Shown: piece by piece, positions 14,017 to 34,443 of the stretch
How positions within the stretch are numbered: the stretch's first letter is position 1
Layout: each line of letters starts with the position of its first letter
DNA from: Lactobacillaceae bacterium
GTDB taxonomy: Bacteria; Pseudomonadota; Alphaproteobacteria; RF32; CAG-239
Direction of reading: 5' to 3'
DNA: 64,000 nucleotides
NCBI GenBank assembly: GCA_031271345.1
Contig: JAISVX010000003.1
Coordinates: forward strand, 293,452-357,451
The notes under the pieces: model-generated
Told to the model about the DNA's origin: nothing
Databases searched by the model: none
Seen by the model: only the letters and a program-made list of their open reading frames with translations
Program-made: the position numbers and the translations under genes

Positions 14017-14613
14017 TTATTCCTTTTCTTTGAGTTTCAAGCTTTTCAGCTTCTTTTCTTTGACAATCTGGTAATGACCGCAGGCATTCCGTATGTTGTC
14101 AACCATGTCGTGGACATCCCAGCGATGAGCTTCGAATCTTTTGCCGTTCAGCCAGACTTTGTCCTTTTCTACTTTGACTGGAAATACGCGCGGATCAACG
14201 GACTCATTTTGCAGGGCATGGTCGCCATAGATAATAACATTTATCTTCTGCTCAAATCTGCGTTTCAATCCGTCCGTCATTGTAAACTCGTCTTCCAAAA
14301 GCATCAGGTATCCGATATTCTTTTCGACGTAGAATTCGAAACCTGTGGTCGAACATATTTTCCCGTCCGCGTTCTTGTAGTATATCAGATGGTTGTCCCT
14401 GACATCTTGGCGATAATCGCTGATGGCAATAGAACTGATAAGGATGATAATTGCGGAAATGACGCAGGTAATGAGAATTCCCGGCCATTTGTCTTCTCCG
14501 GTGTAAGTCTCCTTCGTCCACTCGCAGAATTTGTCTTTCCACTTCGGCGCATTTTTTCGGACATAGGAAATAAACTCATAGAGCTTTCCTTCTTTTTTGA
14601 ACAATTTTCTCAT
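14017..14613 (-). CDS. Hypothetical single-pass membrane protein (198 aa), GC-richer, SD-less leader
   Basis: It has its own promoter (14677-14706) and terminator. One TM helix is present ('ILITCVISAIIILISSIAI'). Codon choice favours C-ending codons, unlike neighbouring rnhB. I recognise no family. Confidence 0.6.
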   Translation of the reverse strand: MRKLFKKEGKLYEFISYVRKNAPKWKDKFCEWTKETYTGEDKWPGILITCVISAIIILISSIAISDYRQDVRDNHLIYYKNADGKICSTTGFEFYVEKNIGYLMLLEDEFTMTDGLKRRFEQKINVIIYGDHALQNESVDPRVFPVKVEKDKVWLNGKRFEAHRWDVHDMVDNIRNACGHYQIVKEKKLKSLKLKEKE

Positions 14614-14676
14614 GATTTTTATTTTTTAAGTTATGAACTAGAATTATTTTAGGCATTGATAATAAAAAATGTACAA

Positions 14677-14706
14677 ATATTATCGCTGGTTTTGTCTAAA
14701 AGTCAA
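14677..14706 (-). promoter_or_regulatory. Sigma-70-type promoter, TTGACT-N18-TAATAT
   Basis: Read on the minus strand: TTGACT (14706-14701), an 18-nt spacer, then TAATAT (14682-14677). It lies about 66 nt upstream of ATG 14613. Confidence 0.55.
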
Positions 14707-32437: not shown

Positions 32438-32992
32438 ATGTTGCACCCGTGGCATGGAGTTAGCGTAGGAATAAACGCCCCAGAAATAGTTACTTCAGTT
32501 ATTGAAGTTCCAAAAGGTTCAAAAACCAAATATGAGTTAGATAAACAAAGCGGTCTGCTTAAGGTTGACAGAATTTTATACAGTTCGGTGCATTATCCCG
32601 CAAATTATGGATTTATTCCGCAAAGCTACTGCGGGGATAATGATCCGTTAGACATACTTATTTTGGGACAAGAAACATTCTGTCCTCTATCTATTGTCAG
32701 GGCAAAACCAATTGGGGTTATGAAAATGCTGGACCAAGGCGAGCCTGACGACAAAATTATCGCCGTTCACATGGATGACCCAGAATATAACCACTATGAA
32801 AGCATAGACGAACTTCCTCCACATTATCTAAAGAGCGTGCAAAGATTCTTTGAAGACTATAAAGTTCTGGAAAATAAAGAAGTAAAGATAGAGAGCTTTT
32901 TAGACGCTTTTGAAGCCAAAAAGGTTATAATGGAAGCATTGGAGTTTTATCAGGAAAATAAATACAAGCTGCGTGGAATGCTTGGAGAATAA
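32438..32992 (+). CDS. ppa: Inorganic pyrophosphatase (family I)
   Basis: Contains '[12 protein letters not shown]', '[10 protein letters not shown]' and '[10 protein letters not shown]'. Confidence 0.92.
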
Positions 32993-33014: not shown

Positions 33015-33043
33015 TTGATTTGGTTTTGATTACGTGCTATCTT
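33015..33043 (+). promoter_or_regulatory. Promoter of small-gene module 1: TTGATT-N17-(TGc)TATCTT
   Basis: -35 at 33015-33020, an exact 17-nt spacer, an extended -10 TG at 33035-33036, and -10 at 33038-33043. Confidence 0.6.
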
Positions 33044-33086
33044 TGCAAGAATTGTTTATTACTAATCCTCAAAAAATTTTAAGTCT

Positions 33087-33302
33087 ATGTCAGAAAAATT
33101 ATTTCCAGGTACCAAGAAGGAAAGAAAAAGCCATGGCGCAATTGATCGAGCCTCAGGGTTATCTCCCAAGTATCCTCAAGACGGATATTACATGAAAGGA
33201 TATAACCAAAAGGAAACCGACAAAAAAGTCGCCGAAGTAAACTCTCCTTTAAGTCCAGCAACCGCCGAAGCTCAAGTAATAAACTTAGCGGAAGGCGAAT
33301 AA
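33087..33302 (+). CDS. Small hydrophilic protein S1 (71 aa), unknown family
   Basis: Lies between promoter 33015 and terminator 33560. It is a paralogue of S2: G17, D20, R21, G24 and P27 sit at identical positions, and 'DGYYMKGYNQKE' matches 'DGAYLKGFRNKE'. No SD. Confidence 0.55.
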   Translation: MSEKLFPGTKKERKSHGAIDRASGLSPKYPQDGYYMKGYNQKETDKKVAEVNSPLSPATAEAQVINLAEGE

Positions 33303-33342
33303 CAATAATCAACAAAATTAATAACTAAAAATTAAAAAGATT

Positions 33343-33525
33343 ATGATGACGTTTGGAAGAAACATCAGCAACAGAGTGAAAAGTGCCGTAGGAAGAGAAG
33401 ATCGCCGCCGCGGAAGTATTCCCAGAAACATGGATGGAGCATACCTCAAAGGTTTCAGGAACAAAGAAAAAGGCCGCCGTCCTTACTTCCGCAGAGAAGT
33501 AATAGACTTCGACACTGCCGACTAA
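33343..33525 (+). CDS. Small basic protein S2 (60 aa), unknown family
   Basis: Second cistron of module 1, after a 40-nt A-rich gap. It is Arg/Lys-rich and a paralogue of S1. No SD. Confidence 0.55.
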   Translation: MMTFGRNISNRVKSAVGREDRRRGSIPRNMDGAYLKGFRNKEKGRRPYFRREVIDFDTAD

Positions 33526-33559
33526 AGTTGCATAAAGCCAAAAGTAAAATCAACTCAAG

Positions 33560-33591
33560 CCCGATACTAACAAGTATCGGGTTTATTTTTT
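33560..33591 (+). terminator. Rho-independent terminator of module 1
   Basis: 9-bp stem cccgatact / agtatcggg with a 4-nt loop, followed by TTTATTTTTT. Confidence 0.8.
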
Positions 33592-33601
33592 ATTATAGAT
33601 A

Positions 33602-33630
33602 TTGAATTTTTGCATATTACATGCTATTAT
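33602..33630 (+). promoter_or_regulatory. Promoter of module 2: TTGAAT-N17-(TGc)TATTAT
   Basis: -35 at 33602-33607, an exact 17-nt spacer, an extended -10 TG, and -10 at 33625-33630. Confidence 0.6.
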
Positions 33631-33691
33631 AATAGAGCTTTTTATTAGTTAACTTTTACAAATTGTGTAATTTAAAAAATTAAAACTTATT

Positions 33692-33949
33692 ATGTCACAC
33701 GGACTTAACGCAGCCAGACTCGGCCGCATTGCAAAACTGGAAGGAAAACAAACAGGCAAACATCGCGAACTTTCTGCAAAAGAAGCTATCGCTCGCGACA
33801 TTGCCTTAGCCGACGGAGAAACAGTAATCTATCTCGATGGCGAAAGGATTTCTATCTGGCTCGAAGACTTACTCGACGAACCCGATTATACATCGGAGTT
33901 CTACAAGACAGGAAACTTCGAAATGCGGGATCACGACGTGGCCGCATAA
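33692..33949 (+). CDS. Small protein S3 (85 aa), unknown family, C-terminus -DVAA
   Basis: Has its own promoter and terminator. It is a paralogue of S4 ('GLNAAR' and 'RE.[ST]A.EAIA.DIA'). Codons are C-ending. No SD. Confidence 0.6.
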   Translation: MSHGLNAARLGRIAKLEGKQTGKHRELSAKEAIARDIALADGETVIYLDGERISIWLEDLLDEPDYTSEFYKTGNFEMRDHDVAA

Positions 33950-33974
33950 ACTAATAAAAACACAATAAATGTTC

Positions 33975-34012
33975 AAACCCTAAGCATAAAAATGCTTAGG
34001 GTTTGTTTTTTT
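33975..34012 (+). terminator. Rho-independent terminator of module 2
   Basis: 12-bp stem aaaccctaagca / tgcttagggttt with a 6-nt loop, followed by a T-run. Confidence 0.85.
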
Positions 34013-34027
34013 GGGGAATAAAATATA

Positions 34028-34056
34028 TTGCCAAATAGACAAATATATGCTATTCT
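34028..34056 (+). promoter_or_regulatory. Promoter of module 3: TTGCCA-N17-(TGc)TATTCT
   Basis: -35 at 34028-34033, an exact 17-nt spacer, an extended -10 TG, and -10 at 34051-34056. Confidence 0.6.
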
Positions 34057-34098
34057 GTAAGAGTTAGTTTATTACAAATCTTAAAAATTTTAGAAATT

Positions 34099-34371
34099 AT
34101 GAACGGATTAAATGCAGCCCGCCGAGTGAAATCTCAGAACAAACGTCGTGAAATGACCGCAACCGAAGCTATTGCTTTCGACATTGCAGCAAACGAAGGC
34201 CTGACCCAAAAGGATCTCTGCCAACCGCACTACACTGCCGATGCAGAAGCGTACATGAACGGTTTCTATGACCGCGAAATTTACGGTTACAAACGAGACG
34301 ACATACGTGTCAACCTTGGCACGAACCGTCGTCACATTAGTTCTGCTGCTATCGCTCGTCTCGCGGCTTAA
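34099..34371 (+). CDS. Small protein S4 (90 aa), unknown family, C-terminus -RLAA
   Basis: Has its own promoter and terminator. The N-terminal half is paralogous to S3. It also carries 'AEAYMNGFYDRE', which resembles the S1/S2 motif. No SD. Confidence 0.6.
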   Translation: MNGLNAARRVKSQNKRREMTATEAIAFDIAANEGLTQKDLCQPHYTADAEAYMNGFYDREIYGYKRDDIRVNLGTNRRHISSAAIARLAA

Positions 34372-34398
34372 ACTAATACGAAACAGCGATGTTTCGGG

Positions 34399-34436
34399 CA
34401 AGTCTCAAAGATTAAATCTTTGGGACTTGTTTTTTA
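34399..34436 (+). terminator. Rho-independent terminator of module 3
   Basis: 14-bp stem caagtctcaaagat / atctttgggacttg (one G-U pair) with a 3-nt loop, followed by TTTTTT. Confidence 0.8.
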
Positions 34437-34443
34437 TTATAAA

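What the first reader, a model, noticed from the sequence alone, without database searches (positions are those of the whole stretch)
33044..34098. Leaders of modules 1 and 3 are better conserved than their coding regions, and no cistron has a Shine-Dalgarno
From the -10 to the ATG, module 1 reads tgcaagaattGTTTATTACtAATCcTcAAAAAaTTTTAagtctATG. Module 3 reads gtaagagttaGTTTATTACaAATCTtAAAAATTTTAgaaattATG. These are nearly identical, yet the downstream proteins (S1 against S4) belong to different sub-types and align only over a short motif. Module 2 and the S1-S2 spacer carry the same two elements, a TTTATTA box and a (C/T)TTAAAAAAT-like A-tract 10-20 nt before the ATG. None of the four starts has a purine-rich SD. 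Housekeeping genes in the window clearly do have one (AAGGAG before rnhB and metG, GGAGA before gdh, AAGGAGGG before the GNAT gene). Stronger conservation in non-coding than in coding sequence argues that the leader itself is functional. It could be a translation enhancer for SD-independent (S1- or A-rich-dependent) initiation, a protein or sRNA binding site, or a thermosensor-like element.
Basis: seen in the sequence. Interest (0 to 1): 0.62.

Follow-up and report, generated by a model that had tools for sequence, protein, structure and literature searches.

The report
Family-wide AU-rich leader replacing Shine-Dalgarno
The two near-identical leaders are copies of a 20-base, G-free leader sequence that gut Alphaproteobacteria of this family place about 10 bases before the start codon of a few genes lacking the usual ribosome-binding site, so it probably acts as an alternative translation-start signal.

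Summary
The leaders of modules 1 and 3 (33055-33074 and 34068-34087) are the only two strong copies in this 1.5-Mb genome of the motif TTTATTAYWAATCYTMAAAA.

The motif recurs across the family, which consists of uncultured gut Alphaproteobacteria. In 282 family genomes there are 68 near-exact hits against 14 for a reversed-pattern control. Of 62 contexts inspected, 47 (37 distinct genes) have an ATG 8-12 nt downstream (mode 10) that opens an ORF. Only 2 of those 47 have a Shine-Dalgarno (SD) core, whereas 52-72% of this genome's genes do.

Outside the family in the same class there is no enrichment (23 hits against 19 control), and none of those hits sits 8-12 nt before an ATG.

One orthologous NUDIX-like gene carries the motif without an SD in some genera and AAGGAG without the motif in another.

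All four cistrons of the array have an A5-6 run ending at -11 to -13. Only 6-7% of the genome's genes do.

The leaders are unstructured, match no Rfam family and show no special complementarity to 16S rRNA. The anti-SD and rpsA are intact.

Best reading: an SD-independent, A/U-rich translation-initiation leader. The strict sequence conservation still allows a specific trans-acting factor. No transcript data could be obtained.

The parts
33015..33043 (+). Module 1 sigma-70-type promoter, TTGATT-17-TATCTT, with TG before the -10
   Evidence: Read. It matches 8 of 12, so it falls below the scan threshold. It has the same geometry as modules 2 and 3.
33055..33074 (+). Leader motif copy 1, TTTATTACTAATCCTCAAAA. 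It starts 11 nt after the -10, and the ATG follows 12 nt after its end.
   Evidence: (24.7 bits).
33071..33076 (+). A6 run at -16 to -11 of S1
33087..33302 (+). S1, a 71-aa orphan protein with orthologues only in the two sister species
33317..33331 (+). Degenerate 3' part of the motif in the S1-S2 spacer, ATTAATAACTAAAAA. It lies 11 nt before the S2 ATG, with no convincing promoter of its own (one borderline 9/12 consensus match overlaps the S2 ATG).
33343..33525 (+). S2, a 60-aa paralogue of S1
33557..33591 (+). Intrinsic terminator of module 1
33602..33630 (+). Module 2 promoter, TTGAAT-17-TATTAT, with TG
33641..33679 (+). Module 2 leader, a diverged and split motif. TTTATTAGTTAACTTTTACAAA is followed by an insertion and then an A6 run at -18 to -13.
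33692..33949 (+). S3, an 85-aa paralogue of S4
33974..34012 (+). Intrinsic terminator of module 2
34028..34056 (+). Module 3 promoter, TTGCCA-17-TATTCT, with TG
34068..34087 (+). Leader motif copy 2, TTTATTACAAATCTTAAAAA. It starts 11 nt after the -10, and the ATG follows 11 nt after its end. Its A5 run lies at -16 to -12.
   Evidence: (24.9 bits).
34099..34371 (+). S4, a 90-aa orphan protein with no homologue in 5.8 billion proteins
34396..34440 (+). Intrinsic terminator of module 3

Best explanation
The conserved stretch is a lineage-specific, Shine-Dalgarno-independent translation-initiation leader.

Each module is transcribed from a strong sigma-70-type promoter. The mRNA starts a few bases before a G-free 20-mer, consensus UUUAUUAUUAAUCUUAAAAA, which occupies about -30 to -11 relative to the AUG. 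Its A-run lies at -15 to -11, where this genome's other genes carry their SD. The AU-rich part upstream lies where ribosomal protein bS1 meets mRNA.

The leader keeps the initiation region single-stranded. It recruits or holds the 30S subunit without SD/anti-SD pairing, most likely through bS1.

Shown here: the motif, its fixed spacing to start codons, its mutual exclusion with SD, its restriction to the family, its lack of structure, and the intact anti-SD and rpsA.

For: 1. Recurrence. There are 68 hits with at most one mismatch in 282 family genomes, against 14 for the reversed pattern. The exact 20-mer occurs in at least 8 genomes of 6 genera.
2. Tie to the start codon. In 47 of 62 contexts, representing 37 distinct genes, an ATG lies 8-12 nt after the motif (mode 10) and opens an ORF. 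Outside the family in the same class, none of 23 hits does so at 8-12 nt, though one has an ATG opening a 107-codon ORF at 13 nt.
3. Exclusion of SD. An SD core is present in 2 of 47, against 52-72% of this genome's genes and 12% at internal control codons.
4. Swap at one gene. A NUDIX-like orthologue has the full motif and no SD in genus g20, and a degenerate TTATTAAT..AAAA core and no SD in g18 and most of g13. It has AAGGAG and no motif in g10 and one g13 genome.
5. Spacing. The distance to the ATG stays within 8-12 nt, while the distance from the -10 ranges from 10 to 26 nt or more. S2, an internal cistron with no convincing promoter of its own, keeps the 3' part of the motif at the right distance.
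6. A-run. All four cistrons have an A5-6 run ending at -11 to -13, against 6-7% of genes. In Flavobacterium johnsoniae, which does not use SD, an A-run at -14 to -11 was shown by mutation to stimulate translation and lies near S1 (PMC6847099).
7. Structure. The 5' regions of modules 1 and 3 fold less well than 199 and 192 of 200 shuffles.
8. Feasibility. The family's 16S rRNA ends in canonical GGATCACCTCCTTTC, and a full-length rpsA is present.
9. Precedent. A/U-rich, G-poor sequences upstream of start sites are known S1-bound enhancers or standby sites in E. coli (PMC2176067).
Against: - No expression, transcript-start or ribosome data could be obtained.
- Known S1-type enhancers are loosely defined and act together with an SD. 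A 20-mer identical across six genera, with a fixed C, is more specific than S1 binding is known to require.
- In most cases the motif also sits at a fixed 10-14 nt from the -10, with a second class at 23-26 nt. This is equally compatible with a DNA-level role.
- The motif is rare, with none to three near-exact copies per genome, and it is not a general feature of the SD-less genes of this genome.
- The instance set was collected with a near-consensus pattern, so the apparent sharpness of the motif is partly a product of that selection.
Confidence: 0.55

Rival explanations
1. The 20-mer is the recognition site of a sequence-specific trans-acting factor of this family. That factor could be an RNA-binding protein or small RNA acting on the 5' UTR, or a DNA-binding repressor sitting at about +5 to +24. 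On this reading the motif marks a small regulon rather than acting as a constitutive ribosome-loading signal.
For: - The same 20-mer is kept letter for letter across six genera, with sharp edges and a fixed C. This is more than generic A/U-richness needs.
- There are few copies per genome.
- In 30 of 45 cases the motif starts 10-14 nt after the -10, inside the RNA polymerase footprint, and a second class lies about one helical turn further.
- The consensus has partial dyad symmetry, TTTA..ATT|AAT..TAAA, read from the sequence.
Against: - All 47 conforming copies are in the sense orientation, with a spacing to the ATG tighter than the spacing to the promoter.
- A repressor site would not explain why an SD is missing in 45 of 47, nor the swap between SD and motif at one orthologue.
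- The dyad is broken in both copies of this window, ACTAAT and ACAAAT.
- No antisense partner was evident in the genome.
Confidence: 0.25
2. The motif acts during transcription as an initial-transcribed-region element of strong promoters. It would favour promoter escape or cause a promoter-proximal pause. Its closeness to the ATG would be a by-product of short leaders.
For: - The motif starts at about +5 of near-consensus TTGACA-17-TATAAT-type promoters in most cases.
- It contains -10-like runs such as TATTAT and TATTAAT, read from the sequence.
Against: - A quarter of cases have the motif 23-26 nt from the -10, yet they keep the 8-12 nt spacing to the ATG.
- The internal cistron S2 has the 3' part of the motif without a convincing promoter.
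- The -10-like heptamer TAYWAAT has the wrong A-to-T spacing for a sigma-70 -10 element.
- This reading does not explain the lack of an SD.
Confidence: 0.08
3. The similarity of the two leaders in this window is only leftover ancestry from tandem duplication of the modules, with no function of its own.
For: - The modules are tandem, and S3/S4 and S1/S2 are paralogue pairs.
- The module 2 leader looks like a diverged copy of the module 3 leader.
Against: - The leader is far better kept (73%, with a near-identical core) than the promoter (52%) or the coding DNA (50%).
- The same motif stands before unrelated genes in other genera whose flanks are unrelated.
Confidence: 0.05
4. The motif is itself a promoter for a phage-type single-subunit RNA polymerase or an alternative sigma factor. 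It would give very short, SD-less leaders.
For: - The variant ATTAACCCTCA equals the core of the phage T3 promoter as I recall it.
- A fixed distance of 8-12 nt to the ATG would suit near-leaderless transcripts.
Against: - No PF00940 polymerase was found in this genome or in 25 relatives. The search had no positive control.
- The motif is 3-4 nt shorter than T3/T7-type promoters.
- Canonical sigma-70 promoters stand just upstream.
- The pattern with an ATG has no match in 2.9 million viral contigs.
Confidence: 0.03

Closest known systems
A/U-rich, bS1-bound translational enhancers and standby sites of E. coli, for example the rrnB boxA sequence used as an enhancer (Komarova 2002; Vimberg 2007, PMC2176067)
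   Same: - G-poor, single-stranded A/U sequence in the 5' part of the initiation region.
- Associated with strongly expressed genes.
- The 3' half, AAUCUUAAAAA, resembles boxA, GCUCUUUAACAA.
   Different: - Those enhancers work together with an SD and are loosely defined. Here the SD is absent in 45 of 47 cases.
- Here the sequence is a near-invariant 20-mer with a fixed 8-12 nt spacing.
- It is confined to one bacterial family.
- Binding to bS1 was not tested.
SD-independent initiation regions of Bacteroidia, with an A-run at -14 to -11 and Kozak-like A-3 and A-6 (Baez 2019, PMC6847099)
   Same: - No SD.
- An A-run at the same position (-15 to -11).
- Low structure.
- The very same 20-mer is found before some Bacteroidota start codons.
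   Different: - In Bacteroidia the whole genome avoids SD because the anti-SD is sequestered. Here most genes use an SD and only a few genes per genome carry the leader.
- The Bacteroidia signal is a compositional bias, not a conserved 20-mer.
Phage T7 gene 10 leader 'epsilon' enhancer (UUAACUUUA), recalled from memory
   Same: A short A/U enhancer upstream of the start. The module 2 leader contains UUAACUUUU.
   Different: - Epsilon is proposed to pair with 16S rRNA and acts with an SD.
- Here no complementarity to 16S rRNA beyond chance was found.

Membership tests
A/U-rich bS1-dependent translational enhancer / standby site | G-poor, A/U-rich, unstructured sequence in the 5' part of the initiation region | tested here: met
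   There is no G in the 20-mer consensus. The leaders of modules 1 and 3 fold less well than 199 and 192 of 200 shuffles. The motif lies at about -30 to -11.
A/U-rich bS1-dependent translational enhancer / standby site | Acts together with a Shine-Dalgarno sequence | tested here: not met
   An SD core is present in only 2 of 47 motif-bearing leaders.
A/U-rich bS1-dependent translational enhancer / standby site | Bound by ribosomal protein bS1 and raises translation | not testable with these tools
   A full-length rpsA is present. Binding and effect on translation need bench work.
Bacteroidia-type SD-independent initiation region | A-run at -14 to -11 in place of an SD | tested here: met
   With the modal spacing of 10 nt, the motif's A-run lies at -15 to -11. 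All four cistrons of the array have an A5-6 run ending at -11 to -13.
Bacteroidia-type SD-independent initiation region | Genome-wide avoidance of SD | tested here: not met
   An SD core is present at 52-72% of starts, with a clear peak at -14 to -9. The family's 16S rRNA has a canonical 3' end.
Structured cis-regulatory RNA (riboswitch, leader, RNA thermometer) | Conserved secondary structure, or a match to a described family | tested here: not met
   Rfam gives no hit in the leaders at E up to 1. No stable fold is predicted.
Operator of a dimeric DNA-binding regulator | Dyad symmetry, and a position fixed relative to the promoter rather than the start codon | tested here: inconclusive
   Seven of nine symmetric pairs hold in the consensus, but the dyad is broken in both copies of this window. 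The -10 spacing is bimodal, at 10-14 and 23-26 nt. The ATG spacing is tighter, and orientation is always sense.
boxA / Nus antitermination site | GCUCUUUAACAA-like sequence, also present in rRNA operon leaders | tested here: not met
   The motif lacks the GC of boxA. No boxA-like sequence (at most 3 mismatches) or motif was found in the leader downstream of the rrn promoters of five family genomes; the few pattern matches lie upstream of the promoter.
Phage-type single-subunit RNA polymerase promoter | A cognate polymerase gene in the genome | tested here: not met
   PF00940 was not found in 26 genomes. The search had no positive control.

The most novel reading that the evidence does not exclude
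The 20-mer is a second, sequence-specific ribosome-recruitment code used alongside the Shine-Dalgarno system in this family. It would be read by a dedicated factor or by a lineage-specific surface of the 30S subunit. It would give a small set of strongly transcribed genes, many of them small or membrane proteins, their own channel of translational control.
Probability: 0.2. Interest if true: 0.85.

Novelty: new variant of a known kind. Interest (0 to 1): 0.6.

Why it matters
SD-independent initiation in bacteria is usually described as a diffuse property: low structure and A/U-richness. Here a discrete 20-nt element with position rules stands in for the SD at a defined subset of genes, in a lineage whose other genes do use an SD. 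The two signals also replace each other at one orthologous gene.

That gives a compact, testable element for asking how 30S subunits find SD-less starts. It offers a possible portable expression part. It would also help call starts of small genes in these uncultured gut bacteria. For this window, it marks S1-S4 as genes built for strong, SD-independent expression.

Tried and rejected
- **Rfam:** a permissive scan of the region matched nothing in the leaders.
- **Pfam, PHROGs, NCBIfam:** S1-S4 matched nothing.
- **Homologues of S4:** none.
- **Loose pattern, up to 3 mismatches:** counts equal the control, so only near-exact copies are informative.
- **Pairing of the motif with 16S rRNA:** RNAduplex energy is no better than for 140 of 300 shuffles. 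The 8-nt matches to the 790 and 910 regions are at chance level and lie in structured rRNA.
- **Antisense partner in the genome:** none evident.
- **General feature of SD-less genes:** no enrichment of motif k-mers upstream of the 363 SD-less ORFs.
- **Exact 20-mer in all prokaryote genomes:** mostly the coding sequence FIINLK of one Campylobacterota gene, or chance hits in AT-rich genomes.
- **boxA/Nus idea:** not supported by the family's rRNA leaders.
- **Phage-type promoter idea:** no such polymerase gene found.
- **Phage cassette idea:** no match in viral contigs.
- **Thermosensor:** no hairpin over the start.

Full report
**What is in the window**

Between ppa (32438-32992) and a minus-strand ankyrin/S8 autotransporter gene lie three tandem modules. 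Each has a sigma-70-type promoter with a 17-nt spacer and a TG before the -10, a short leader, one or two small ORFs and an intrinsic terminator.
- Module 1 encodes S1 (33087-33302) and S2 (33343-33525).
- Module 2 encodes S3 (33692-33949).
- Module 3 encodes S4 (34099-34371).

The proteins match no Pfam, PHROG or NCBIfam family. S4 has no homologue among 5.8 billion proteins or in 40 related genomes. S1 and S2 have relatives only in the two sister species of the genus, where they are annotated as hypothetical.

**Check of the observation**

The quoted leader strings are exact.
- From the -10 to the ATG, modules 1 and 3 are 33/45 identical, with a near-identical core.
- The promoter stretches are 52% identical and the coding DNA 50%.
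- S1 and S4 show no significant protein similarity.
- GTTTATTAC.AATC occurs only at these two places in the 1.5-Mb genome.
- None of the four starts has an SD core.
- In the window, 41 of 59 larger ORFs have one. Genome-wide the figure is 52-72%, against 12% at internal control codons, with a sharp peak at -14 to -9.

SD absence is therefore real but not rare. More telling is the A-run. All four cistrons have an A5-6 run ending at -11 to -13, a feature of only 6-7% of the genome's genes.

Module 2 carries a diverged motif split by an insertion. The S1-S2 spacer carries the 3' part, ATTAATAACTAAAAA, 11 nt before the ATG.

**Comparative evidence**

The genome is a MAG of uncultured gut Alphaproteobacteria. 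Record titles of relatives name deer rectum and mouse gut.

In both sister species an S1 orthologue follows ppa directly. Its SD-less leader contains ATTATTTATT and an A/U tract 9 nt or fewer before the ATG.

A near-copy of the module 1 and 3 leader then turned up before an unrelated gene in a sister species and in other genera. A systematic scan of all 282 genomes of the family with TTTATTAYWAATCYTMAAAA, allowing one mismatch, gave these results:
- 68 hits, against 14 for the reversed pattern.
- Hits in 12 of 23 genera.
- The exact 20-mer TTTATTATTAATCTTAAAAA in at least eight genomes of six genera.

I read 62 of these contexts.
- In 47 of them, representing 37 distinct genes by N-terminal sequence, an ATG lies 8-12 nt after the motif and opens an ORF. 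The spacing counts are 10 nt in 21 cases, 9 nt in 8, 11 nt in 8, 8 nt in 7 and 12 nt in 3.
- The flanks on both sides are not conserved.
- The remaining 15 are mostly inside genes or terminators.
- Only 2 of the 47 have an SD core, and both are one pilin-like gene (binomial P below 1e-12 against the genome's rate).

In 397 genomes of other families of the same class, the pattern is no commoner than its control (23 against 19). None of those hits has an ATG at 8-12 nt, and one has an ATG at 13 nt.

Elsewhere in prokaryotes the exact 20-mer is mostly the coding sequence FIINLK of one Campylobacterota gene, or a chance hit. The exception is several Bacteroidota cases that also precede start codons.

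**An orthologue test**

A NUDIX-like gene that carries the motif was followed across the family. Its promoter (TTTACA/TTTACT-17-TAnnnT) is kept wherever a motif or its remnant is present.
- In genus g20 the full motif starts 12-13 nt after the -10, and there is no SD.
- In g18 and most of g13 a degenerate core TTATTAAT..AAAA remains, again without an SD.
- In g10 and one g13 genome the leader has AAGGAG or AGGAG and no motif.

The two signals therefore replace each other at one gene. This is the strongest argument that the motif serves ribosome binding.

**Features that bear on mechanism**

- The family's 16S rRNA ends in canonical GGATCACCTCCTTTC, so SD pairing is available. The genome of the window lacks a 16S gene.
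- The motif shows no complementarity to 16S rRNA beyond that of shuffles.
- The predicted 5' regions of modules 1 and 3 are less structured than 199 and 192 of 200 shuffles. No Rfam family matches.
- A full-length rpsA is present.
- With the modal spacing, the motif's A-run lies at -15 to -11. In Flavobacterium johnsoniae, which does not use SD, an A-run at -14 to -11 was shown by mutation to stimulate translation and is placed near S1 (PMC6847099).
- In E. coli, A/U-rich G-poor sequences such as rrnB boxA are S1-bound enhancers or standby sites (PMC2176067).
- Upstream promoters of motif-bearing genes are mostly near-consensus. This suggests strong expression.

**What does not fit neatly**

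- The motif is far more sharply conserved than known S1 enhancers require.
- It is rare, with none to three near-exact copies per genome. In this genome only modules 1 and 3 score high.
- It is not a general trait of SD-less genes here.
- Its distance from the -10 is bimodal: 10-14 nt in 30 cases and 23-26 nt in 11, with almost nothing between. I cannot explain this. It keeps a DNA-level role, or a role tied to the mRNA 5' end, in play.
- The instance set was gathered with a near-consensus pattern, so motif sharpness is partly selected.

**Rivals considered**

- A sequence-specific trans factor, protein or sRNA, is the main rival and is not exclusive of the best reading.
- A role as an initial-transcribed-region element is weakened in two ways. 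The class with long promoter spacing keeps the ATG spacing, and the internal cistron S2 has no convincing promoter of its own.
- Mere paralogy is contradicted by the recurrence before unrelated genes with unrelated flanks.
- A phage-type promoter is unlikely. No such polymerase gene was found in 26 genomes, canonical promoters stand upstream, and there is no match in viral contigs.
- The boxA/Nus reading found no support in the family's rRNA leaders.

**Verdict**

The leaders of modules 1 and 3 are two copies of a family-specific, SD-replacing 5' leader element. Modules 2 and S2 carry degenerate forms.

The most likely mechanism is SD-independent ribosome loading on an unstructured A/U-rich leader with an A-run at the SD position. 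Confidence is about 0.55, and there is no direct functional evidence.

I rate it a new variant of a known kind, with an interest of about 0.6.

Noticed in passing
G122:C1:201140-202074 and G050:C35:29901-30489 (L215/L216, L056/L057): Other genera also carry two motif-bearing promoter-leader-small-ORF modules in tandem, 570-915 bp apart. They encode small hydrophobic proteins. The tandem-module layout of this window therefore recurs elsewhere in the family.
   Followed up: partly
47 family contexts: The distance from the -10 hexamer to the motif is bimodal: 10-14 nt in 30 cases and 23-26 nt in 11, with almost nothing between. The step is about one helical turn. This is unexplained.
   Followed up: partly
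37 distinct motif-bearing genes: 46% have a strongly hydrophobic segment in the first 36 residues, against 22.5% of this genome's ORFs. Membrane or secreted proteins seem over-represented. S1-S4 are not hydrophobic.
   Followed up: partly
window 14614-14680 (-), upstream of the 198-aa ORF that starts at 14613: This is another SD-less leader of the split kind, as in module 2. TTTATTATCAATGCCTAAAA is followed 18 nt later by CTTAAAAAATAAAAATC and then the ATG.
   Followed up: no
L076-L195: The exact 20-mer is conserved in many Campylobacterota as the coding sequence ...FIINLK... of one gene. In several Bacteroidota it lies 6-12 nt before start codons.
   Followed up: partly
L196-L200, upstream of 16S: The rRNA operon leaders of five family genomes show no canonical boxA (GCTCTTTAACAA, at most 3 mismatches) between promoter and 16S.
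   Followed up: no
window 32438-32992 (ppa): This family-I pyrophosphatase was found only in the three species of the genus. It was absent at E <= 1e-5 from five genomes of other genera of the family.
   Followed up: no
G078:C8:38775-38794 and other AACCCT variants: The variant ATTAACCCTCA equals the core of the phage T3 promoter as I recall it. No single-subunit polymerase gene was found.
   Followed up: yes
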